A DNA stretch of 64,000 bases from IMG/VR virus record IMGVR_UViG_3300035670_000083, positions 36,285 to 100,284 of that record; one strand, 5' to 3'. This DNA comes from a virus. Below, in pieces: positions 4,365 to 31,420 of this stretch. The translations under genes were made by a program, and so were the position numbers. Numbering within the stretch: position 1 is the stretch's first letter; the number at the start of each line of letters is the position of its first letter. The notes under the pieces were generated by a model. That model made no database searches, was not told where the DNA came from, and worked only from the letters and a program-made list of their open reading frames with translations.

Positions 4365-4646
4365 ATGAGTACAATAACAGAAAAAAAATCAAAATCAAAA
4401 GTAGATGAAATACTTTCAAAGCCATTTAAGTTGATTCTTCACAACGATGATTATAATTCCTTCGAATGGGTAATAACTTGTTTGATTAAAGTTTGTGGAC
4501 ATGATCATCAACAAGCTGAGCAGTGTGCTCATATAGTTCATTTTAACGGTGAATGTGATGTTAAAAGAGGTGATTATGAGAAACTATCTGTGATGAAGGA
4601 GAAATTACAGAATGCTGGTTTGTCAGTTACTATAGAATCAAATTAG
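4365..4646 (+). CDS. clpS: ATP-dependent Clp protease adaptor ClpS
   Basis: LILHNDDYNSFEWV...AHIVHFNG signature. Confidence 0.9.
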   Translation: MSTITEKKSKSKVDEILSKPFKLILHNDDYNSFEWVITCLIKVCGHDHQQAEQCAHIVHFNGECDVKRGDYEKLSVMKEKLQNAGLSVTIESN

Positions 4647-4669
4647 TAAAGTATATCAAGAAATAGACT

Positions 4670-4701
4670 GAACCTCACATTACATATACATCTTGTTATA
4701 T
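4670..4701. repeat. attC-like half site A (right arm only)
   Basis: CTCACATTACATATACATCTTGTTA nearly identical to the right arm at 7072-7095. Confidence 0.7.
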
Positions 4702-4779
4702 TCAGTAATTTTTAAATTATTTTCAAAAAATCGTTTTTTTTTTTTATTAATATATAGAATATAAATATTATCAGAAGAA

Positions 4780-4818
4780 ATGAAAAATGTAAAACTATAT
4801 AAAGTGGATACGTATTAA
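4780..4818 (+). pseudogene. truncated cassette remnant MKNVKLYKVDTY
   Basis: late promoter at ~4748, MKxxKL start, stops after 12 codons, followed by a cassette end ACACATAAC. Confidence 0.4.
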
Positions 4819-4830
4819 TTTTTTTATTAC

Positions 4831-4880
4831 ACATAACGTTCCGATTATTTGCGTTCGGTGGGGCGTTACACCACCAATGA
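4831..4880. repeat. attC-like half site B (left arm)
   Basis: ACATAACGTTCCGATTATTTGCG..., no matching right arm/GTTA closing the stem. Confidence 0.55.
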
Positions 4881-4887
4881 TTATTAT

Positions 4888-5720
4888 ATGAGTAAAGAAA
4901 TGAGAAGGTTAATAGTTACTTTTAATAAGTTTGTTATTAAAGAAAAGTCTAATAATATTAAAAAATAGTTTCAAAATATGATGCTCCGTATGGAATTATT
5001 TTTGATGGGGAAAACAAAATATTAGTTGGTGATATGCACCAAACACCAGTTGAATTATCTAAAAAACTTGAAAATAAAGTAGTTAATGTTGCAAACAAAT
5101 ATGGTTATTATGGTGAAGGTATTGGTTTGGAACATAACGAAGCAATCACCAAATCATCTTTTTATGAAAGATTAGACCCCAAAAAACATTATGGTTCTTG
5201 GGATAGAAAATTAATTGAAAGTGGTGAAGTACCTGAAGATAAAAAATATTTTTTTTTGTATGCTTTGTTTTCAAATCCAAAAGAAAATCATAGATTAGAA
5301 AAATTATTGGAAAATACGGAAGAAGAAGATACAATTTTTTATGTCTTACTAAAAACTATACCCGATTGGTCAGCAGATATGGGTAAATTTAGTTTAGGAC
5401 AAAAAGAACTAAATAAATTTCTTAAAGAAATAAGTGAAAATGGAATTGATTTTATTCAAATGTCACAACAAAAAGCAGATGAAAAATCATTATCAGAATT
5501 TTTAGATTTAGGAGAAAAATTACAATGGCCTGAAAAAAATTGGCAAGATTATCCAAATATGGCAGGTAAATTTGCAAGAGTGGCGACAACCATTAGAGAC
5601 CAATTTTTAATTAATGCTGGACCTGGGGTTTATTTTGTCGGTGCGGGACATCTTAAAGATATTGTAAAAATGGGCAAAGAAAAAAAATTATCTTTAATAG
5701 GGGGCGAAAAAATCATGTAA
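4888..5720 (+). pseudogene. frameshifted cassette gene, TraB/GumN(TIKI)-like
   Basis: MSKEMRRLIVTFNKFVIKE... joins the 5034..5720 frame if one A is added in the A6 run 4960-4965; GDMH and YFVGAGHL motifs. Confidence 0.55.
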
Positions 5721-5733
5721 AAAATATTGTGTA

Positions 5734-5781
5734 TAACGTCCGATGATAAACAATCGCTTTAATGTTGTTTATCATTTGTTA
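5734..5781. repeat. attC-like site C (48 bp)
   Basis: TAAC-GTCCG-ATGATAAACAA-TCGCTTTAATG-TTGTTTATCAT-TT-GTTA. Confidence 0.9.
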
Positions 5782-5859
5782 TATTCAGTTAAATTTTTTC
5801 AATTATTTCAAAAAACCGTTTTCTTTATTAATATATAAAAGAAAAATAATATTAAAACT

Positions 5860-6534
5860 ATGAAACATATAAAAAAATATGAAACTTTTCTAGAAAAAAA
5901 ATGGATACTAGGAATAAATGAAAACATTTTTGATAAAATTGAATCACTAGTTAAGGGAAAATCAGACTCTGGTAAAATTATATCCGAATTCTTAACTAAG
6001 AACGGAATTAAAGAAACTGGGACTGCATATTCAATTCTCTATTTGGGCGGTGCTAATCCAGGCAAATCCGAATTAAGTCACCCATTTGATTATTTACATT
6101 ATACACCAGGTATCGCTAAGATTACAGAAGATGGTGTTTTAGTATTAAATGATGAAAAATCTAAATCATTAAAAACACCAGATACATTATCATTTCTAGC
6201 AATTATTGAAAAAGATGATATTGTTAAAAATTGGACATTTGGATTAAAACAAGGGTGTAGTGTAAATAAAAATGATTATACTTTTGATTTAACAAAGGAT
6301 ATTTCAACTCTAACTTTTAAAAAATCTATGTGGTCAATGTTGAAACAAACTTGGATTAAAGGAGAAGATGAAGTTGTAGAACTTGATAATGATATTACTG
6401 AACTTAAAGAGGAAGATACTATATCCTTCAAAACCCCTATGAATATGATAACTCTACAACAATGGGTTGATAAGTTGAATGAGACAGGATGGGTTAAAGA
6501 AAATAGTAAATATTTTAAAGAATATATAAAGTAG
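5860..6534 (+). CDS. cassette gene, hypothetical with capsid-targeting-like N-terminus
   Basis: MKHIKKYETFLE; TAATATATA at 5829-5837. Confidence 0.8.
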   Translation: MKHIKKYETFLEKKWILGINENIFDKIESLVKGKSDSGKIISEFLTKNGIKETGTAYSILYLGGANPGKSELSHPFDYLHYTPGIAKITEDGVLVLNDEKSKSLKTPDTLSFLAIIEKDDIVKNWTFGLKQGCSVNKNDYTFDLTKDISTLTFKKSMWSMLKQTWIKGEDEVVELDNDITELKEEDTISFKTPMNMITLQQWVDKLNETGWVKENSKYFKEYIK

Positions 6535-6617
6535 GCAATAATCCACAAATAAAAAACACCAATTCGTTAAGTGAAATTGATTATTTTATATCCACAATTG
6601 GAAAACGAAACAGAACT

Positions 6618-6665
6618 TAACGGTTGAGAATATGTGTTCGTTTTAATGACACATATTCTTTGTTA
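6618..6665. repeat. attC-like site D (48 bp)
   Basis: TAAC-GGTTG-AGAATATGTGT-TCGTTTTAATG-ACACATATTCT-TT-GTTA. Confidence 0.9.
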
Positions 6666-6691
6666 TATTTAGTATCAAAAATTTTATACAA

Positions 6692-6934
6692 ATGAAAAAA
6701 TGTAAATGTATTAAAGAATCTTCTTGGTTTTTAATTGATGATTCCTTCGATAAGAATTCTAAATTAAATGGTGGTGGATTTTCTTTTCAAGTAGGTAGTG
6801 AATATGATTATTTTGAAGAAGATACACCATTTGGAAATGGTATGTCGGTTATCCATCCTAAACATGGGAAAGAAAATCCTACTGGTTTTGATGAAAGAAG
6901 ATTCTACGAACACTTTGAAATAATAAACTCATAA
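6692..6934 (+). CDS. cassette gene, small hypothetical
   Basis: 80-aa ORF filling the interval between sites D and E. Confidence 0.75.
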   Translation: MKKCKCIKESSWFLIDDSFDKNSKLNGGGFSFQVGSEYDYFEEDTPFGNGMSVIHPKHGKENPTGFDERRFYEHFEIINS

Positions 6935-6952
6935 AATTTTTGATATTGAACC

Positions 6953-7095
6953 TAACGATACTCAGATATATTTAGGTTTTCTTTTTAATGTAGTGTGAGA
7001 TTTGAAACACTACCTGTCAATATACCAACAAACTCTATTAGAAGCACTTACCTTCAATTAACCACCGAATCTCACATTACATATACACCTTGTTA
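6953..7095. repeat. attC-like site E (chimeric, 143 bp)
   Basis: left arm of G/J type, right arm of I/A type, inner stem ATGTAGTGTGAGATT/AATCTCACATTACAT. Confidence 0.75.
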
Positions 7096-7204
7096 TGTGT
7101 AGGTGTGATTATTTACCACCAAACTCTATTCGGAGAACTGAAAGAAAATTTTAGAAAAAAGAAGGGAGGGAAATTTAATTCAGAATATTTTATATATATC
7201 ATCT

Positions 7205-8020
7205 ATGATACTCAAATTTAATCAGTTTATAACTGAAAGACTTTCCTATTCTGAAGATGTTGAGATGATCTCAAAGATTATAATTGAATACTTATATGGT
7301 AAAGAAAACTGGGAATCAGAAGAAGTGATAAAAATAGATAATTCGGTTATAAATGAAGTAAGAATACAATTCATAGATAATTTAAGTAAGTTAGGAAAAA
7401 AATCATCATTTAATCCAAATAAATCAGATTATAATAATCGTATGATATTTTTAGAATTTGATCCAGATGAAATCACCGAAGGATTGTTAAATCATGAAGT
7501 ATTTCATGGGTGGGAATGGATTCGAAATGAAGGAAAACATTTAACTAATTCTTTTCAATTCGCAATTATTCAATTAAATAATTACTTTGAAGAAGATGAA
7601 AACATATCTGAAATTATTCAACTATTTTATTTAATGTCAGATGCTGAAATTAGATCTCATTTAAATAGTGATATATTTGAATTTAAAAGATGGAAAGAGG
7701 ATAAAAATACCACTTCGATGGAAGAAATAGATTTATTAATAGAGGAAACAGATACATTTCAAAATTATCAATTTGTGAAAAAATTTAATCTAAACGAATA
7801 TTTAAATAAATTGAGTACTGAGAAATTAGATGAATTTATATCAGCAGTTGAACAAATGAAGTATATGAAAGATGGTGAAGAGTCTGAAATTATGGTGAAG
7901 AGATTTTCTGATTTAGAGAGAAGTAAATTTATACAAAAGTTAAATATTATACACAAACAACAAAGTGAAAAAATTACTAAATATTTAGGAAAATTAATAT
8001 TATATTTCAGAAACTCTTAA
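7205..8020 (+). CDS. cassette gene, HExxH metallopeptidase-like with capsid-targeting-like N-terminus
   Basis: MILKFNQFITE; LNHEVFHG. Confidence 0.7.
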   Translation: MILKFNQFITERLSYSEDVEMISKIIIEYLYGKENWESEEVIKIDNSVINEVRIQFIDNLSKLGKKSSFNPNKSDYNNRMIFLEFDPDEITEGLLNHEVFHGWEWIRNEGKHLTNSFQFAIIQLNNYFEEDENISEIIQLFYLMSDAEIRSHLNSDIFEFKRWKEDKNTTSMEEIDLLIEETDTFQNYQFVKKFNLNEYLNKLSTEKLDEFISAVEQMKYMKDGEESEIMVKRFSDLERSKFIQKLNIIHKQQSEKITKYLGKLILYFRNS

Positions 8021-8061
8021 ATTTTTTTTAGAAAAAATTTATTTGATACATTTTTAATTAC

Positions 8062-8069
8062 TATATTTG
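8062..8069 (+). promoter_or_regulatory. Bacteroidota-type -7 box TATATTTG
   Basis: TAnnTTTG, with TTTG at 8042-8045 upstream. Confidence 0.55.
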
Positions 8070-8088
8070 CGTATATAATAAAAATAAA

Positions 8089-8342
8089 ATGGAAAATCTC
8101 AAACAAGAAAATAACTACGAAAAATTTGTTATCAGACAGAAGGTGGTTGGGTATTAAAAGAAGGCGTGGCTAAAAAGGAAGAGATAAGTTTTTTTGTTGT
8201 TAGTCCTGATGGTAAAGAACTTACTTGTTTAGATGGTTCAAATATATTCTCTTCTGTTGATAAATCTGATTTGTTAGAATCGTTTAATATGAGGTTTAAA
8301 ACAAACTGTGTTAGTGTAGAAAGACCAAATGTTTTTGAATAA
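8089..8342 (+). pseudogene. frameshifted small cassette gene
   Basis: MENLKQENNYEKFVI then a 1-nt shift near 8135 into EGGWVLKEGVAKKE...PNVFE*. Confidence 0.55.
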
Positions 8343-8368
8343 GAAAATAATTGAAAAATAATTCAATA

Positions 8369-8448
8369 TAACGGTTGCAAATATGAGAAGTAAATTTTTT
8401 CCATAAAAAAATAGAAAAATCAAAATTTATTTCTTATATTTGTTGTTA
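8369..8448. repeat. attC-like site F (80 bp)
   Basis: TAACGGTT-GCAAATATGAGAAGTAAATTTT...AAAATTTATTTCTTATATTTGT-TGTTA. Confidence 0.85.
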
Positions 8449-8474
8449 TATTTAGTAAAAATTAATTTATACAT

Positions 8475-8654
8475 ATGAAATACGAAGCACTTAAAAAAGA
8501 ATATTATGCAGTTTATGAAAAAGAACCAAGACACCAGAATGAAAAGAATGGTGTGATACTTGCACCATATAACACGAAAGAAGAAGCTGAACAAGCGAGA
8601 ATTAAATATGGTTATAGTGATGATAACTACTATGTTGATAAACTCATAAATTAA
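8475..8654 (+). CDS. cassette gene, 59-aa hypothetical (below ORF-track cutoff)
   Basis: MKYEALKKEYYAVYEKEPRHQNEKNGVILAPYNTKEEAEQARIKYGYSDDNYYVDKLIN*, fills the F-G interval. Confidence 0.75.
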   Translation: MKYEALKKEYYAVYEKEPRHQNEKNGVILAPYNTKEEAEQARIKYGYSDDNYYVDKLIN

Positions 8655-8667
8655 TTTTTATTGAATA

Positions 8668-8789
8668 TAACGATACTCAGATATATTTAGGTTTTCTTTT
8701 TAATATATACTAAAAACAATTTATGAAAGATAATAAACACATAAAAAGTTTCAACGATCATCAAGAAAACTTGAATATATCTGATGTTA
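8668..8789. repeat. attC-like site G; loop contains late promoter and gene start
   Basis: TAACGATAC-TCAGATATATTTAGGTTTTC...GAAAACTTGAATATATCTGA-TGTTA; TAATATATA 8701-8709; ATG 8723. Confidence 0.9.
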
Positions 8790-9004
8790 GTGGTAGTGAA
8801 ATATTAAAATATCTTGATGATAAATATCATGTAAAAGATAATCTAATGATTGTTGGTAGATTTGATAAGAACAAAAAATATAATTATATTCAATTGTCTA
8901 ATGAAATATCAAAGGTATTTGGTTTGTCAACACAACAATCATTAGATTTAGTAGAAAAGTGGAAAGATATTAGATTTGAGAAAATTATGAAAAATAGATT
9001 TTAA
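8723..9004 (+). CDS. cassette gene starting inside site G
   Basis: MKDNKHIKSFNDHQENLNISDVS then unique C-terminus. Confidence 0.8.
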   Translation: MKDNKHIKSFNDHQENLNISDVSGSEILKYLDDKYHVKDNLMIVGRFDKNKKYNYIQLSNEISKVFGLSTQQSLDLVEKWKDIRFEKIMKNRF

Positions 9005-9018
9005 TATTTAATTATCAC

Positions 9019-9066
9019 TAACGTCCGATGATAAACAATCGTTTTAATGTTGTTTATCATTTGTTA
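9019..9066. repeat. attC-like site H (48 bp)
   Basis: differs from site C at one loop base. Confidence 0.9.
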
Positions 9067-9177
9067 TGTGTAGGTGTGGATTATTTACTACTAAACTTCA
9101 ATCGGAGAACTGAACAAAAATTTTAAAACAAAAAGAAGGGTGGGTTTTTTAATCTTACTATTTATATATAAAAGAAA

Positions 9178-9606
9178 ATGATGAAAGATTTGAGACAGTT
9201 TATTAAAACAACCATACGTGAGTTTTTGAATGAAGCATACATTGATGAGGATGGTAATTTAAAAGACTTTAATGATAAAATATTCTATGATTTTGATAAA
9301 ATTAAAAAGTTTGTAGATTGGTTTCAAAGTGAATATAGTGATTATACTCATAAACAGGGTTGGTCTATATTCGATTCTGATACAGAAGCACCTAATGAAA
9401 AATATCATAGTGAAAGAACTTTTAATGGTAAAAAATTGAATGGATATTATTGGCAAGTTCAAAGATTAGATTCACCAAGTGATGACGAAGCATTATTTGG
9501 GAAATTACCAAATGATTATAAGGCTGATGATTTAGCAAGAAAGTTAGGTTTAATGGTTGATGAATACGGTGTGGTTTATGGTTGGGATGGACAATCTTTT
9601 TTATAG
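9178..9606 (+). CDS. cassette gene, hypothetical with capsid-targeting-like N-terminus
   Basis: MKDLRQFIKTTIREFLNE; TTATATA upstream. Confidence 0.8.
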   Translation: MMKDLRQFIKTTIREFLNEAYIDEDGNLKDFNDKIFYDFDKIKKFVDWFQSEYSDYTHKQGWSIFDSDTEAPNEKYHSERTFNGKKLNGYYWQVQRLDSPSDDEALFGKLPNDYKADDLARKLGLMVDEYGVVYGWDGQSFL

Positions 9607-9676
9607 TGTGTGGGATTTTTCTTTTAAAATTTTCAACCGAAATATTGATTAGAACGATGAATGGAACACTTACACA

Positions 9677-9766
9677 TAACGGATGGGTGTATATGTAGGT
9701 TTTTTAACTTTAAAATTTAATATATACTTATGAACTGAATAAAAAACTTACATATACACCTTGTTA
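9677..9766. repeat. attC-like site I (90 bp); late promoter in loop
   Basis: TAACGGATG-GGTGTATATGTAGGTTTTTT...AAAAAACTTACATATACACC-TTGTTA; TAATATATA 9718-9726. Confidence 0.9.
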
Positions 9767-9797
9767 TGTGTTAGTAAAAAATAAAAGGAAAAAGAAT

Positions 9798-10103
9798 ATG
9801 AAAAGATTAAAATACATTAAAAGATTCAATGAATCAAATGAAATGGATATTGAAATTGAATTAATTGGTCCTGATATAGATGATATTTTAGATGCAATTA
9901 ACTTCATAAACAATAACTATGATGTGAGTGTAAATCCAACAGATTTTCAAGAAGGTTCTGATATGCCTTATGCTCATAAAAGAAATCAAAATTATTCAAT
10001 TTTTGTTAAGTTAAATCCTAGTGGTGATGAAAAAAGTCATATCAGATTTATTAATGATTTGTTGGATGAAAACGGATTCTCTTGTAGGTTGTATATGATT
10101 TAA
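9798..10103 (+). CDS. cassette gene, acidic hypothetical with capsid-targeting-like N-terminus
   Basis: MKRLKYIKRFNES; ATG 9798 preferred over 9768. Confidence 0.8.
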   Translation: MKRLKYIKRFNESNEMDIEIELIGPDIDDILDAINFINNNYDVSVNPTDFQEGSDMPYAHKRNQNYSIFVKLNPSGDEKSHIRFINDLLDENGFSCRLYMI

Positions 10104-10130
10104 TGATATTATTTATTTTCTTATTACACA

Positions 10131-10260
10131 TAACGATACTCAGATATATTTAGGTTTTCATTTTTAATATATAAACAAAAATAATTTAACAACATGAAAA
10201 GTTCAAATAATGTAAAAAGTTTCAAAGAGTTCAATGAAAACTTGAATATATCTGATGTTA
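10131..10260. repeat. attC-like site J; loop contains late promoter and gene start
   Basis: same arms as site G; TAATATATA 10165-10173; ATG 10194. Confidence 0.9.
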
Positions 10261-10424
10261 GTGATAGTTTTTTGTCACCCGAAGAATTTTTAATTGATTG
10301 GGAAGGTAAAGATGATTCAACACACCCCAATCAAGATATTAGAGACGAATGGACTAAAAGAATTAATCAATTAAAAATTTATTCAAAAATGGTTCTTGAT
10401 AACACTTTAAAAAATTATCACTAA
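10194..10424 (+). CDS. cassette gene starting inside site J
   Basis: MKSSNNVKSFKEFNENLNISDVS...; its stop codon is the TAA of the last TAAC. Confidence 0.8.
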   Translation: MKSSNNVKSFKEFNENLNISDVSDSFLSPEEFLIDWEGKDDSTHPNQDIRDEWTKRINQLKIYSKMVLDNTLKNYH

Positions 10425-10460
10425 CTATATTATATATGTAATGACCTATAAATAATTGAT
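10416..10460. other. candidate attI-like primary integration site
   Basis: final ATCACTAAC not followed by G or a hairpin, just 5' of the integrase. Confidence 0.55.
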
Positions 10461-10461
10461 T

Positions 10462-11265
10462 ATGAATGAAAAGGGTAAGTCAACTTTAAAGATTTGTGAA
10501 CAAAAACTTAATTATCTAAATTATTCTAAAAGAACGATTGATAATTATTTATCACATATTAATAGATTTTTAAAATCACAAAATAAATCATGTTTGCATT
10601 TATCATCTAATGATTTTCAGTCATATTTAGATAATTACAAATTTACTTCTATATCGCAACAAAACCAAGTTATTAATTCTATTCGATTTCTTTATAAAGA
10701 AGTTCTCGGTAAAAAGTATGATAAAGTCTCTTTCAAAAGACCTAAATCTGAAAAGAAACTTCCACAGGTTATAGATGGTGATTATATAAAATCACAATTA
10801 TCTAAAATTGATAATCTTAAACATAAGGCAATCCTCACACTAACATACTCGGTTGGATTAAGGGTTTCTGAAATAACCAATCTTAAAATTGAAGACATTG
10901 ATTCAAAAAGAATGATCATTCATATAAAAAATGCAAAAGGAAAGAAAGATAGGATTGTTCCACTTTCTGAAAATGTTTTAAATTTGCTTAGATATTATTG
11001 GAAACAATATAAACCAAAAGAATACCTTTTCAATGGATTATCCGGTAGATATTCAATTCAATCCTGTCAGAAAATATACAAAAAATATATTGATGAAAAA
11101 TCATCATTTCATACATTAAGACATTCTTCATTTACTAATTTACTTGAGTCAGGAACAGATTTGCGGATAATACAGAAAATAGCAGGTCATTCAAGCTCAA
11201 AAACAACCGAAATATATACTCACGTTTCAAATCAAATTTTAAGGAAAGTTAAATTACCCATCTAA
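10462..11265 (+). CDS. IntI-related tyrosine recombinase (N-terminal SAM-like domain plus catalytic domain)
   Basis: YSKRTIDNY, SQQNQVINSIRFLY, GLRVSE (R), KGKKDR (K), HTLRH, GHSSSKTTEIY. Confidence 0.92.
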   Translation: MNEKGKSTLKICEQKLNYLNYSKRTIDNYLSHINRFLKSQNKSCLHLSSNDFQSYLDNYKFTSISQQNQVINSIRFLYKEVLGKKYDKVSFKRPKSEKKLPQVIDGDYIKSQLSKIDNLKHKAILTLTYSVGLRVSEITNLKIEDIDSKRMIIHIKNAKGKKDRIVPLSENVLNLLRYYWKQYKPKEYLFNGLSGRYSIQSCQKIYKKYIDEKSSFHTLRHSSFTNLLESGTDLRIIQKIAGHSSSKTTEIYTHVSNQILRKVKLPI

Positions 11266-13464
11266 TCCCCAAGATTTTCTAGCTTCTACCATCCTTCTAT
11301 TATAAGAGATTTTATTTCTTCTTATATCCAGTAATTGTTTATAATCAACTCCTTCTTCATATGATATTTTATTTAAAATATCATCAACTTTATTTCTTAT
11401 CTGTATATCTTCTAAATTATCAAAATAATCATCTACCATCCCTCTGAAATCATTCTTACCAAAAATAGATGTTAGGTTAACCAAAGTCATAACCGTATCA
11501 TCATTTTTATTACCATCAGCTTTATAAGTAATATTTCCAGTTCTTGTTGTATGTTTTATAAATGTTGTCATTTCATCTATATTTTCGTTATTATAAATAA
11601 TAATTGATCTATCTTGCATTTTTTCTTGGTAATCTTTCACCATTAGGTTTTTATTCTCACCAACTTTTAATCCTATTTTTTCATCTAACGCATCTACTCT
11701 GTGTTTAAATCTAAAGAATATAGATGATCCATAGTTGTTATTTCCTTCAAATACATTCGGTAAGTGAGCAAGTAACTCATATCCGTATGTATTGACTTCT
11801 AATACAGCTTTTAAATTATCTGTATCAAAATGATCAAAAGCTAAAACATAAAGTAATTCTGATAATTCATTGACGGATATAAGATTGCTTCTATACATTC
11901 CTATTTGTTCAAGTTGAATAAAGTCAAGTATGTTTCTATAATTCTTATTTTGTCTTTCTATTAGATCTATCGGCTTTGATTTTAATTTGAAAATATTTAT
12001 CACCGTATAGTCCTGTCCTAATCCTTCAGATACATCTATACTTAATAGTATCCGATAATTTTTTCTTATTTGTGGATTATAAATTTCTTTATTCGGATGC
12101 CATTTTAGATCTTTGTAAGAGAATTTAAGTTTTTCTTCTATTTCAGGAATTTCCTGCCATTCAAATAATGTTTTTCTATCAGTTAATTCTTTTATTAATC
12201 CATCATCTAATAATGATCTAGATGAGTTAATAAACTTCAAGTCAAATTCTTGGTTAAAAGCTTCTTCACCACCAATATCTTTGATTGTTTGTTTTTTCCA
12301 AGTTGTTATTTCAGCAATTTCTGGTAATTTAATATCATTTATTGTTTCTTTAATGATATCTTCTTCCTGACAATCATCAGAATTAAAAACATGAACAACC
12401 CACTTATTTAACTCGTCATCAAATCTCAGCTCTGATTTATTTTTTGGAAAAGATTCTTTAATCCTACTTAAAACATCTTCTGGTTTGACATTGTAGTGAT
12501 CTAATTTCTTTTGATTCAATCTTATGTATGTCACGAATCTTTTCGGAACTTGCCACCAATAAACTCTTTTTGCCACATAAGATGATTTTTCGCCTTCAGG
12601 CTTTTCAGCTTCTATTAAAAGTTTGTGAAATAAATTAAATCCGTTTGGAGTAGAGGTTATTATAATTTTAGAATTATCGATGTTGGCAATAGTAGGAAAC
12701 ACCGATTTGTAGAATTTATCTGCAATATTATCTGGTAGATAAGCAAACTCATCTAAATATAAAAAGTCAGCAGATTGACCGATAGAAGCGGTTTTTGTTG
12801 TTGCAAATCCTTTTATACGACTTTTATTTTCAAATGACATGAATTTCTCATTCCACTTTTTAATACCTTGTTGTAAGAAAAATGGAAGTCTTTGGTATAT
12901 TTCTTTCATTTTATCAAGGATCTCAGTTGCTGTATCCAACTTATTTGCTGTTACAAGAACGTTTTTGTTATTATTAAAAAGAACAAAATGTAATATGGTT
13001 ATTGCTGATGTGATAGTATTATGTGATAAAATACCATTTGTATAATATCTATGATTTGGATGATCAATAGATAAATCAAACATAGATAGTTTATGATTTG
13101 TTTTTTCTATCATTTTAACTTTTGATATTCCTTGATCAGTTTGTATGTAATCGCCTATTTTTAAATCTTTTATGTATATTTGATTAAAGTCCACATCAAA
13201 TAAAATGTGATTATCAGCACCGTTAAGAAATAGTCCATTTTCTAGTTTTAAATTATATTCACTATAAGGTTGTGTTATATGTATTTGCGGAGCTATTTCA
13301 TAACCAGTGTCTGTTTTCACTGATAAGTTGCAACTTATTGTATTCAATATCTTTTTGGATATATCATGTTCATTCAAATCTAAATTTCTGTATTCGAAAA
13401 CTTCTATATACTCAATTAATTTTTTTATTAAATATATTATGATAAGAGTAAAAAATCTAAACAT
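11254..13464 (-). CDS. terminase large subunit C-terminal part preceded by split-intein IntC (149 aa)
   Basis: ...MFDLSIDHPNHRYYTNGILSHN|TITSA; Walker B LYLDEFA, ITSTPNG, nuclease DVSEGLGQD and DDTVM. Confidence 0.92.
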   Translation of the reverse strand: MFRFFTLIIIYLIKKLIEYIEVFEYRNLDLNEHDISKKILNTISCNLSVKTDTGYEIAPQIHITQPYSEYNLKLENGLFLNGADNHILFDVDFNQIYIKDLKIGDYIQTDQGISKVKMIEKTNHKLSMFDLSIDHPNHRYYTNGILSHNTITSAITILHFVLFNNNKNVLVTANKLDTATEILDKMKEIYQRLPFFLQQGIKKWNEKFMSFENKSRIKGFATTKTASIGQSADFLYLDEFAYLPDNIADKFYKSVFPTIANIDNSKIIITSTPNGFNLFHKLLIEAEKPEGEKSSYVAKRVYWWQVPKRFVTYIRLNQKKLDHYNVKPEDVLSRIKESFPKNKSELRFDDELNKWVVHVFNSDDCQEEDIIKETINDIKLPEIAEITTWKKQTIKDIGGEEAFNQEFDLKFINSSRSLLDDGLIKELTDRKTLFEWQEIPEIEEKLKFSYKDLKWHPNKEIYNPQIRKNYRILLSIDVSEGLGQDYTVINIFKLKSKPIDLIERQNKNYRNILDFIQLEQIGMYRSNLISVNELSELLYVLAFDHFDTDNLKAVLEVNTYGYELLAHLPNVFEGNNNYGSSIFFRFKHRVDALDEKIGLKVGENKNLMVKDYQEKMQDRSIIIYNNENIDEMTTFIKHTTRTGNITYKADGNKNDDTVMTLVNLTSIFGKNDFRGMVDDYFDNLEDIQIRNKVDDILNKISYEEGVDYKQLLDIRRNKISYNRRMVEARKSWGLDG

Positions 13465-29583: not shown

Positions 29584-29612
29584 ATTTTTAATTTTTTTTT
29601 TTAACAATAAAA

Positions 29613-29727
29613 AACCCAAGGACTCTTTTGAATCCTTGGGTTACTATTAGATAATATAATCACATTATCTTTGGGGTATCCAAGGATTTAATCTGTGAAT
29701 TATAATTATGTTTCTTTTCATTTTCAT
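29613..29727 (-). promoter_or_regulatory. ribosome-mediated Ile attenuator (leader peptide, antiterminator, terminator)
   Basis: terminator hairpin 29613-29642 with U tract; competing AATCCTTGG at 29688-29680. Confidence 0.85.
29665..29727 (-). CDS. ileS leader peptide MKMKRNIIIIHRLNPWIPQR
   Basis: four consecutive Ile codons ATA ATT ATA ATT, just downstream of TATATTTG (29739-29732). Confidence 0.85.
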   Translation of the reverse strand: MKMKRNIIIIHRLNPWIPQR

Positions 29728-29758
29728 TTTACAAATATATTAATTATATATGAATTTT

Positions 29759-31420
29759 TTACACCTTTGTTAAATTTTTTTCAAATTTTATTTTACCACA
29801 ATTCCAAACTTTATTTATTTGTAGTGATGATTCAGAAACACCTGTTATAGATTTTCTAAATCTTGATTTGTGTATCAATTCATTTTGAAAAAGGTATTTA
29901 TAATCTGGTTCAGTCTCATGAATTTTTTCAAATTCTAATTTATAGTATAAATCTCCTTCAGACCAGTCTTTATCTGCATAACTTATTATTCTTGTGGGTT
30001 TAAATTCCTTAATAAAAAAAGAAAGTAATTTTGAAGCTCCTCCAACAACAGAGTAATTTACCTTATTGCAAAACCTAGACAAATTCCATTCGTCATTACT
30101 CATTTTTTTTCTACCCTCGAAATGATCAAATAACATTATTGATACCAATTCATTTCTGTAGTATAATCCTAATTTAATATTTGATTTTACAAACCCTTGT
30201 ATATGATTTTTGTCTAAAAAGTCTCTTATAGATTTGATATCTTTAATCTCTTTTACTTCACATTTTCTTGCTGGTATTTTCTTACTCTTACCAATTATAT
30301 TACTTATCTGTGACTTTATTATTTCTTTCCTATTTGTCCAATCATTTTCCCATATATTTATTATCCTTATTCCTTTTTCCTTGAAATAATTTAGTTTGTT
30401 TATATGGTAATTTTTATCTTTAAATTTATCAGAATGCCAATATATTCCATTGAACTCAAACCCAATTTTAAATTCTGGTAAGTAGATATCTATTTCAAAT
30501 TTGTCTCTGAATGAACTTATTAATTCTCCATCATAGATTGATTCTATGAAATCAAAAATCTCTTTTTCCTTTATGGAAATAAGTTCGTTTATAGGAAAAC
30601 AAATTGTGCATAATGGAATATTGTTTTCTAATCTTGACTTGAAGTTATTATAAAGTATTTCAAATTCATGTTCTTTTTCACAATCACATTTAAAAATAGA
30701 AATACTATTTCCTTTATATTCTTTATAGTTTTCATGATTTGAGATATCATAATTATTTCTGAATGTGTTGGAATTAAAAACATTCATCCTATTTATATTA
30801 GATTTCTCAATATTTAAGGTGCTTTTAACTCCCCATTTTTCTAAATTTGTTGATTCTTTTTTATCTTTTATAGTTTGACTTTGTGAGAAATGTTCTAATC
30901 CCCATTTACTTAAATTGGATTCTTTTTGTTTTTGATAAAATTCTTCAGTTTTTGAGAAGTTTTCAGCTCCCCATTTTTCTAAATTTGTTTGCTTAAATTT
31001 GGATTTTATCTTTTCATTTTGTAATACGTGCTCAACTCCCCATTTTTTTAGATTTGTTTGTTTTCTTTTTTTAAGAATTTTTTCTAATTTTGATTTATCT
31101 ATTTTCCTACCTTTGTTAGGATTTATTTTTTTAGGTTCTAATTCTATTGTTTCTTTGAACTTTTCATTTCCGCACTTACGAGAGCAAGCATATTTATTCA
31201 ATTTACTTTTATAAACTATCCTATTATAATCAACAAATTTCCTTTCATGTTCTTTATTACAATAATCACATTTTACTAAAACGTTTATATTAATTGATTT
31301 AGGTAAATCTATTATCTTAACCTCTATTTCATCTAAAGAAATATCATATCCTAAAGACTCATAGTGTTTTAGTTTTTTGTTAGCAAACGTTTTTACTAAT
31401 ACTGTTTTTGATAATATCAT
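29759..31420 (-). CDS. putative homing endonuclease (Hef-like) with TNLEKWG repeats
   Basis: CDYC, repeated TNL(K/E)KWG, EIDIYLPE..GFEFNGIYWHS, RFCNK..VGGASKLL. Confidence 0.75.
   Translation of the reverse strand: MILSKTVLVKTFANKKLKHYESLGYDISLDEIEVKIIDLPKSININVLVKCDYCNKEHERKFVDYNRIVYKSKLNKYACSRKCGNEKFKETIELEPKKINPNKGRKIDKSKLEKILKKRKQTNLKKWGVEHVLQNEKIKSKFKQTNLEKWGAENFSKTEEFYQKQKESNLSKWGLEHFSQSQTIKDKKESTNLEKWGVKSTLNIEKSNINRMNVFNSNTFRNNYDISNHENYKEYKGNSISIFKCDCEKEHEFEILYNNFKSRLENNIPLCTICFPINELISIKEKEIFDFIESIYDGELISSFRDKFEIDIYLPEFKIGFEFNGIYWHSDKFKDKNYHINKLNYFKEKGIRIINIWENDWTNRKEIIKSQISNIIGKSKKIPARKCEVKEIKDIKSIRDFLDKNHIQGFVKSNIKLGLYYRNELVSIMLFDHFEGRKKMSNDEWNLSRFCNKVNYSVVGGASKLLSFFIKEFKPTRIISYADKDWSEGDLYYKLEFEKIHETEPDYKYLFQNELIHKSRFRKSITGVSESSLQINKVWNCGKIKFEKNLTKV

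What the first reader, a model, noticed from the sequence alone, without database searches (positions are those of the whole stretch)
8369..10460. Plus-strand G-T wobble bias and candidate attI imply an integron whose genes all point toward the integrase
Seen: almost all imperfect pairs in sites F, G, I, J and in cassette ends are G-T on the plus strand (A-C on the minus strand), so the plus strand folds better. All complete sites start TAACG, but the integrase-proximal one (10422) is TAACT with no hairpin. In integrons the better-folding strand is cut at AA|C, and attI lies 5' of intI (established). Inference: 10424|10425 is the insertion point, each hairpin travels with the gene to its right, and genes are inverted relative to classical cassettes, relying on their own promoters rather than Pc. 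The wobble bias could alternatively reflect mRNA folding.
Basis: partly seen in the sequence, partly recalled or inferred. Interest (0 to 1): 0.7.

Follow-up and report, generated by a model that had tools for sequence, protein, structure and literature searches.

The report
Phage integron-like array, genes facing recombinase
A large phage keeps small accessory genes as swappable units, each led by a folding DNA hairpin, that are inserted at one four-base spot just upstream of a short Xer-type recombinase gene: a bacterial integron's layout, but with the genes turned round, each with its own promoter, and an enzyme lacking the part thought essential for integrons.

Summary
All seven complete sites in the window read TAAC-G, a 3-4 nt bulge, stem, loop, stem, T-GTTA. 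They hold 15 G.T and no A.C stem pairs, and all fold better on the + strand. In 245 unique family sites, 221 fold better on that strand.

In 82 related phage loci these sites pile up directly upstream of the recombinase, on its strand. Phages with identical recombinases are identical up to TAAC|T and unrelated beyond it. One pair differs by exactly one unit inserted there. A 960-nt unit sits beside attI in one phage and inside the array in another, bounded by TAAC on both sides with its hairpin on the left. So 10422-10425 is the attI-like junction, and each hairpin travels with the gene on its right. Of 273 units, 264 point toward the recombinase.

The wobbles sit at fixed positions. In bacterial relatives they stay on the TAACG-first strand although the genes there run the other way, which argues against mRNA folding as the cause. 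That the + strand is the one cut is inference only. The recombinase lacks the IntI insertion, so this is integron-like, not an integron. This scan has noted the same system in many other phage genomes. I found no paper describing it.

The parts
4680..4698 (+). Distal half-site A: a right arm plus GTTA only, directly after clpS. This is the far end of the array.
4834..4869 (+). Site B: TAACG with a degenerate short fold and no proper GTTA box.
5734..5781 (+). Site C: a 48-nt hairpin with loop TCGTTTTAATG. It heads the unit holding ORF 5860-6534.
6618..6665 (+). Site D: a 48-nt hairpin with the same loop and a compensated stem. It heads the unit holding ORF 6692-6934.
6953..7095 (+). Site E: a chimeric site. 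The left part is G/J-type and is joined to the inner part and right arm of an I-like hairpin. It heads a two-ORF unit (7205-8020 and 8166-8342).
8369..8448 (+). Site F: an 80-nt hairpin heading the unit with ORF 8475-8654.
8668..8789 (+). Site G: a 122-nt hairpin. Its loop and right arm hold the promoter-like box 8700-8709, the start codon and the first ~20 codons of ORF 8723-9004.
9019..9066 (+). Site H: a 48-nt hairpin, 98% identical to C, heading the unit with ORF 9178-9606.
9677..9766 (+). Site I: a 90-nt hairpin with promoter-like box 9717-9726 in its loop, heading the unit with ORF 9798-10103.
10131..10260 (+). Site J: a 130-nt hairpin of the G type that encloses promoter-like box 10164-10173 and the start of ORF 10194-10424. 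The TAA stop of that ORF is part of the attI TAAC.
10422..10440 (+). attI-like site: TAAC|T followed by an A/T-rich TATAT box, with no hairpin. It is the boundary between the conserved recombinase side and the variable array, and probably overlaps the recombinase promoter.
10456..11265 (+). Xer-type tyrosine recombinase of 269 aa counted from TTG 10456 (the likely start is ATG 10462). Motifs that in the aligned solved recombinases hold the catalytic residues are present (GLRVSE from residue 134, KGKKDR from 161, HTLRHS from 219, GHSS from 244, EIYTH from 252). It lacks about 50 aa where IntI carries its specific insertion.

Best explanation
This is an integron-like gene-capture platform in a large phage.

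The unit. A mobile unit runs from the C of one TAAC to the TAA of the next. It holds, in order: a + strand hairpin site; a GTTA box with a unit-specific flank; a promoter-like box; one or two small genes; and the complementary flank.

How it moves (inferred). The neighbouring Xer-type recombinase recombines the TAAC box of a circularised unit with the hairpin-less TAAC|T site about 35 nt upstream of its own gene. The newest unit therefore lands next to the recombinase, and every gene points toward it.

By analogy with integrons and with CTX phage integration, the + strand (TAACG first) is the strand that folds and is cut between A and C. Only one strand is exchanged, and replication completes the event.

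Shown here: the site structure, the site's link with the recombinase, unit boundaries inside TAAC, insertion next to the recombinase, and gene polarity.

Inferred: the catalyst, the single-stranded substrate, which strand is used, and the exact phosphodiester cut.
For: Link with the recombinase. In 82 loci, sites number 108, 90, 62 and 41 in the first four kb upstream on the recombinase strand. Elsewhere they number 0-6 per kb.

Site conservation. Hairpins are 90-100% identical between phages whose recombinase DNA is about 72% identical, while the ORFs between them are unrelated.

Structure. In the 48-nt class, 10 of 12 stem pairs change on both sides, 98.9% of cells pair against 80% in shuffles, and the covariation score is 0.50 against 0.14 (0 of 500 shuffles).

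Junctions at base resolution fall in TAAC, and one single-unit insertion lies at attI.

Unit ends are inverted repeats. Of the 8 flank positions, 5.5 are Watson-Crick and 1.1 G.T between the two ends of one unit. Between the two flanks of one site the figures are 2.8 and 1.5, no better than random pairs.

Too little shared sequence for ordinary exchange. attI and the hairpin sites share only 4-5 bases. That is too few for homologous recombination and fewer than the 6-8 identical bases a classical two-strand exchange needs (my own knowledge of tyrosine recombinases).

Strand. The TAAC | attI | recombinase order on the + strand matches the bottom strand of a class 1 integron (my own knowledge). 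In bacterial relatives (L130, L118, L120) the same bulge and G.T pairs stay on the TAACG-first strand, although all 12 cassette ORFs run the other way.

Cultured support. Polaribacter phage Freya isolates differ by whole units placed 47 nt upstream of their 37%-identical integrase. Freya_10 equals Freya_9 plus 307 nt, and Freya_6 equals Freya_5 plus 442 nt.
Against: No experiment or read-level data show excision, circles or strand use here; the runs were available only as contigs.

The enzyme lacks the IntI insertion that integron integrases use on folded attC (PMC4792948).

Most of the evidence comes from metagenomic contigs, which can be misjoined at repeats. Against that, the blocks come from different samples, and the Freya genomes come from isolates.

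Junctions cannot be placed more finely than TAAC.

The Freya sites showed no long hairpins in my folds, so that support concerns only where units are inserted.
Confidence: 0.72

Rival explanations
1. The recombinase performs ordinary double-stranded site-specific recombination at a short TAAC core. The palindromes matter for something else, such as cruciform or protein binding, or termination of read-through transcripts. The fixed G.T pairs are then recognition bases or RNA features, not marks of a single-stranded substrate.
For: The enzyme is Xer-like and lacks the IntI insertion. The double-stranded products seen cannot tell which strand was used. Each hairpin sits at the 3' end of the upstream gene and is followed by a T-rich TGTTAT. 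The wobbles sit at fixed positions, as recognition bases would.
Against: attI and the hairpin sites share only 4-5 bases. Stems covary with no sequence conservation, and loop length varies from 11 to over 100 nt while the geometry next to the core stays fixed. Unit ends are complementary, which only matters if they pair. In bacterial relatives the G.T pairs lie on the strand that is not in the mRNA. No hairpin meets the simple terminator criteria, though those criteria exclude A/T-rich stems.
Confidence: 0.17
2. The sites fold and recombine as single strands, but on the minus strand. The + strand wobble bias then comes from RNA folding or from composition.
For: Both strands can fold. The + strand is G-rich here, with GC skew up to 0.29.
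Against: Junctions lie at the + strand TAAC box. On the minus strand that is the 3' GTTA box, whereas integron integrases cut the 5' AAC box of the folded strand (my own knowledge). The minus strand is less stable in 221 of 245 sites. Variable positions show no G.T excess, so composition is not the cause. The wobble follows site polarity and not transcription in bacterial relatives.
Confidence: 0.06
3. These are regulatory stem-loop plus promoter cassettes, like the PeSL elements of T4-type phages. They are shuffled by homologous recombination between repeats, and the recombinase is an unrelated lysogeny integrase.
For: Small ORFs are each preceded by a stem-loop and a phage promoter-like box. 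In contigs of other runs, ORFs are replaced between a conserved leader and trailer. PeSL is described in PMC2839356 and PMC4122927.
Against: The arrays always abut the recombinase, on its strand. The attI junction shares only TAAC with the hairpins, so homology cannot explain it. Breakpoints fall at one four-base spot. The recombinase is 60-80% identical across phages whose terminases are 25-36% identical, so it travels with the array.
Confidence: 0.04

Closest known systems
Integrons (IntI, attI, attC cassette arrays), especially sedentary chromosomal integrons
   Same: A tyrosine recombinase gene lies next to a hairpin-less insertion site. The array is made of discrete units bounded at an AAC/GTT core. 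The sites are imperfect hairpins with a paired core box, an unpaired spacer, a stem and a variable loop. Each unit's two ends are complementary. The core | attI | recombinase order is the same on the strand that codes for the recombinase. The solved structures nearest to the model are VchIntIA (2a3v) and archaeal XerA.
   Different: The recombinase lacks the roughly 50-aa IntI-specific region. The genes lie on the TAACG-first strand, so they point toward the recombinase. The hairpin precedes its gene instead of following it. Units carry their own promoter-like box, sometimes inside the hairpin loop. Fixed G.T pairs and a 3-4 nt bulge stand where attC has extrahelical bases. The host is a phage.
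Phage CALINs reported by Qi et al. 2023 (PMC9892861), in particular Polaribacter phage P12002L
   Same: P12002L_attC1, as given in that paper's primer table, is a 48-nt-class hairpin with the same loop TCGTTTTAATG. In the genome it sits upstream of a methyltransferase gene, on that gene's strand, and the unit ends are complementary.
   Different: The paper treats it as a classical attC in a cluster without an integrase. IntI1 did not recombine it. No phage recombinase, attI or inverted polarity is described, and no integrase is annotated in P12002L.
CTX phage integration by XerC/D at dif (my own knowledge)
   Same: A Xer-type enzyme without an IntI insertion recombines a folded single strand of phage DNA with a double-stranded site by a single strand exchange, and replication completes the event.
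   Different: That system has one site and one integration event into the host chromosome. It has no cassette array, and the enzymes are host-encoded.
PeSL promoter-terminator cassettes of T4-type phages (PMC2839356, PMC4122927)
   Same: Stem-loop plus promoter modules lie between small variable genes in a hyperplastic region of a large phage.
   Different: PeSL shuffling is ascribed to homology, with no dedicated recombinase, attI or fixed four-base junction.

Membership tests
Integron | An integrase of the IntI type that carries the IntI-specific additional domain (I2 helix region) | tested here: not met
   TIGR02249 scores 160 bits against a cutoff of 265, in two stretches. The alignment to IntI4 (2a3v) skips chain residues 174-260 against query residues 175-212. 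The model shows no extra helix there.
Integron | An attI site next to the 5' end of the integrase gene, where cassettes are inserted | tested here: met
   The conserved/variable boundary falls exactly at TAAC|T in phages with identical recombinases, and one single-unit insertion lies there. This evidence is comparative, not experimental.
Integron | attC-type sites: imperfect hairpins with AAC/GTT core boxes, an unpaired spacer and a variable loop | tested here: met
   The geometry is shared by 238 of 293 unique sites. Covariation is strong. Site lengths fall in three main classes around 48, 80-90 and 115-130 nt, with a few longer.
Integron | Extrahelical bases that mark the recombined strand | tested here: inconclusive
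   A 3-4 nt 5' bulge and fixed G.T pairs occupy that place. Whether they serve the same function is unknown.
Integron | Cassettes are mostly promoterless, point away from intI and are read from Pc | tested here: not met
   264 of 273 units point toward the recombinase, and a promoter-like box lies in the units.
Integron | Recombination of the folded bottom strand with replicative resolution | not testable with these tools
   Only double-stranded products are visible, and the reads were available only as contigs.
Xer recombinases (XerA/XerC/XerD) | The sequence reaches the family model's cutoff | tested here: not met
   NF040815 XerA scores 175.8 against 220. XerC and XerD score about 140 against 330-335. 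By fold the protein is nearest to IntI4 and XerA.
PeSL regulatory cassettes | Shuffling by homology between repeats, without a dedicated recombinase or a fixed junction | tested here: not met
   The junction with attI shares only TAAC, and the arrays are tied to the recombinase.
CALIN (attC cluster lacking an integrase) | No integrase beside the array | tested here: not met
   An intact recombinase gene starts about 35 nt from the last junction.

The most novel reading that the evidence does not exclude
A Xer-type recombinase without the I2 region recombines folded single-stranded hairpins on the strand that also codes for the genes. Phages would then own a separate, or ancestral, form of the integron. 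In it, promoter-bearing units are exchanged between very different large phages, and fixed G.T pairs plus a bulge take the role of attC's extrahelical bases in choosing the strand.
Probability: 0.5. Interest if true: 0.9.

Novelty: new variant of a known kind. Interest (0 to 1): 0.8.

Why it matters
Integron recombination is held to depend on the IntI-specific domain reading extrahelical bases of folded attC. Here the same platform logic runs beside an enzyme without that domain, in viruses, and with the genes turned round. This gives a direct handle on how integrons arose from Xer-like enzymes. It also shows how large phages trade accessory genes, and it points to a second, compact structure-specific recombination system. 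Cultured Polaribacter phages (Freya, P12002L) carry related arrays, so the questions can be tested at the bench.

Tried and rejected
Reads. Laying public runs on 4600-11300 gave only contigs, which break at the hairpins. The listed joints are other units that share hairpins or leaders. This is no evidence for or against excision or circles.

Age gradient. Unit-end complementarity does not fall with rank from attI (Spearman 0.07, p = 0.24). The better-kept ends of the proximal units in this window are therefore not a family-wide trend.

ORF family against hairpin type. Only 13 homologous ORF pairs exist among 273 units. Upstream hairpins were more alike than downstream ones (0.76 against 0.37), but the sample is too small to count.

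BLAST segment ends. Left ends cluster at TAAC, but most ends fall inside ORFs, so this was used only as a weak pointer.

Promoter and terminator scan. No hairpin was flagged, and sigma-70-like promoters occur at chance level.

Synteny. ClpS, the HAD protein and TerL are not near the recombinase in any relative.

Bacterial prophage search for the host. Cellular relatives are at most about 52% identical, apart from one partial 69% match. Most lie in Bacteroidota MAGs, so no host can be assigned.

Literature. Four searches found no description of this system. The paper on the Freya phages reads their integrase only as a sign of a possible temperate lifestyle.

Full report
WHAT THE WINDOW IS. The window is part of a 100-kb IMG/VR virus record, estimated 18% complete, with about 27% G+C. 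Between clpS (4365-4646) and a 269-aa tyrosine recombinase (10456-11265) lies a row of small + strand ORFs. A T4-type terminase gene follows on the other strand.

THE OBSERVATION. Seven complete sites share one geometry: TAAC, then G plus a 3-4 nt bulge, a stem of 13-23 pairs, a loop, the return stem, one T, and GTTA.
- Their stems hold 15 G.T and no A.C pairs.
- With DNA parameters every site is more stable on the + strand.
- The site nearest the recombinase, at 10422, reads TAACT and does not fold.
- No further + strand site of this kind occurs in the 100-kb record; the only other hit, on the minus strand at 29602-29772, looks spurious.

IT HOLDS ACROSS A LARGE FAMILY. The recombinase has 207 relatives in IMG/VR, on contigs of up to 362 kb.
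- In 82 loci the sites pile up directly upstream of the recombinase, on its strand: 108, 90, 62 and 41 in the first four kb, against 0-6 per kb elsewhere.
- A detector that treats both strands alike finds 622 G.T against 84 A.C pairs.
- The recombinase strand folds better in 221 of 245 unique sites.
- The 48-nt class shows textbook covariation: 10 of 12 stem pairs change on both sides.

WHAT THE UNITS ARE. Hairpins are 90-100% identical between phages whose recombinase DNA is only about 72% identical. The ORFs between them are unrelated. Four results fix the unit boundaries.
- L041/L043, L042 and L044 have identical recombinases. They are identical up to TAAC|T and unrelated beyond it. The same holds for L046/L047 and L024/L029.
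- L042 equals L044 plus one unit of about 800 nt placed between the same neighbouring unit and attI.
- A 960-nt block, 99.9% identical, abuts attI in L006 and lies inside the array in L024. It starts at the T of a hairpin's TAAC and ends at the C of the next TAAC.
- A second block of 1828 nt ends at TAACG in both phages and is followed by different hairpins.

Therefore the junction lies within TAAC, and the hairpin belongs to the gene on its right.

The flanks add to this. The 8 nt after a site's GTTA pair with the 8 nt before the next TAAC, that is, with the other end of the same unit. On average 5.5 of these are Watson-Crick and 1.1 are G.T. The two flanks of one site pair no better than random. 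In this window units F-G, G-H, H-I and J-attI pair over most or all of 16 positions. A circularised unit would therefore carry a fully paired outer box around its hairpin, as an integron cassette does.

POLARITY AND PROMOTERS. The longest ORF is on the recombinase strand in 264 of 273 unique units, and in 88 of them the ORF starts inside the site. The box TTAATATATA lies 15-30 nt before the start of most cassette ORFs, and 70 nt before that of unit I. It also lies before many ordinary genes on both strands of the phage, at 65 matches against 36 expected. The units therefore bring their own promoter-like element.

THE STRAND QUESTION. Double-stranded products cannot show which strand was exchanged, so this part is inference. 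Four points favour the + strand.
- Order. The sequence unit, TAA|C, attI, recombinase on the + strand is that of the bottom strand of a class 1 integron (my own knowledge).
- Position of the junction. Junctions lie at the 5' box of the + strand fold, which is where integron integrases cut (my own knowledge).
- Shared identity. attI and the hairpin sites share only 4-5 bases. This fits a single strand exchange better than a classical two-strand one.
- The wobbles are fixed features. They are the pair next to the core (25 of 26 distinct sites in the 48-nt class), stem pair 1, stem pair 14 (140 of 176) and outer position 7 (157 of 206). Variable outer positions show no bias, which excludes a mutational cause.

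The mRNA-folding alternative is weakened by bacterial relatives. In a Desulfitobacterium chromosome and in two contigs of one Nitrospirae MAG, a 45-48% identical recombinase that is likewise insertion-less sits beside arrays with the same site geometry. All 12 of their ORFs run opposite to the TAACG-first strand, yet the G.T pairs (11 against 1 A.C) and the bulge stay on that strand. These loci also show that the phage genes, and not the sites, are what is inverted relative to the classical layout.

CULTURED SUPPORT. Polaribacter phage Freya isolates have a 37%-identical integrase. They differ by whole units placed at (C/T)AAC|ACCCC, 47 nt upstream of the integrase. Freya_10 equals Freya_1 plus 4.9 kb, and also Freya_9 plus 307 nt. 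Freya_6 equals Freya_5 plus a different 442-nt unit. I saw no long hairpins at those sites, so this supports only the place of insertion.

THE ENZYME. It scores below the cutoff for the XerA, IntI and XerC/D models. Its alignment to IntI4 skips about 50 aa where the IntI-specific region lies. The nine-sequence model (pLDDT 76.5) is nearest to IntI4 and XerA. It is far better conserved between these phages (60-80%) than their terminases are (25-36%), so the module appears to move between phage lineages.

LITERATURE. Qi et al. 2023 reported attC clusters in phages. Their P12002L_attC1 is a member of this hairpin family, with the same loop and the gene-sense orientation. IntI1 failed to recombine it, and no phage recombinase was linked to it. 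I found no description of the system as such. Earlier notes of this scan report the same system in many other phage genomes.

CAVEATS. Most comparisons use metagenomic contigs, and repeats invite misassembly. Junctions are resolved only to four bases. No direct evidence of excision, circles or strand use was obtainable.

Noticed in passing
L130:5680-12162 (Desulfitobacterium sp. Sab5 chromosome); also L118 and L120 (one Nitrospirae MAG): These bacterial arrays have the same site geometry and complementary unit ends. They lie downstream of a co-oriented, insertion-less, XerA-like recombinase, and their ORFs run antisense to the TAACG-first strand. They look like integron-like arrays in bacteria that lack a classical IntI.
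   Followed up: partly
L195:29150-32350 (Polaribacter phage P12002L, minus strand): DNA methyltransferase genes are each preceded by a hairpin of this family (loop TCGTTTTAATG) and have complementary unit ends. No integrase is annotated in this phage. The site published as attC2 is the hairpin-less TAAC end of the row.
   Followed up: partly
window 8668-8797 and 10131-10268: Sites G and J enclose the promoter-like box, the start codon and a conserved N-terminal stretch of about 25 aa. Two otherwise different ORFs share this stretch. The same module occurs in 26 other viral contigs.
   Followed up: partly
window 9061-9233, 7090-7198 and 9605-9681: A conserved 5' leader and a 75-nt 3' trailer are shared by units with unrelated ORFs. 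Contigs of other runs keep the leader and trailer while the ORF between start and stop codon is replaced (joints 9177 to 9606 and 6700 to 6927).
   Followed up: no
window 6953-7095: Site E is a chimera. The left part of a G/J-type site is joined to the inner part and right arm of an I-like hairpin, as if a gene had been lost by an illegitimate event.
   Followed up: no
window 11254-13464 (minus strand): The large terminase subunit is 736 aa, with a weak intein-splicing match just before the ATPase domain. No relative within 10 kb of the recombinase in other phages has a similar terminase.
   Followed up: no
whole window, e.g. 15110, 17963, 26923, 32680, 33403, 40898 (-), 55351 (-): TTAATATATA lies 15-30 nt upstream of many start codons on the gene's own strand. 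It is probably this phage's own promoter motif.
   Followed up: partly
L002-L081 compared with the window: The recombinase-plus-array module sits in different genomic neighbourhoods in different large phages. It is much more conserved than the terminase, which suggests the whole module moves horizontally.
   Followed up: partly
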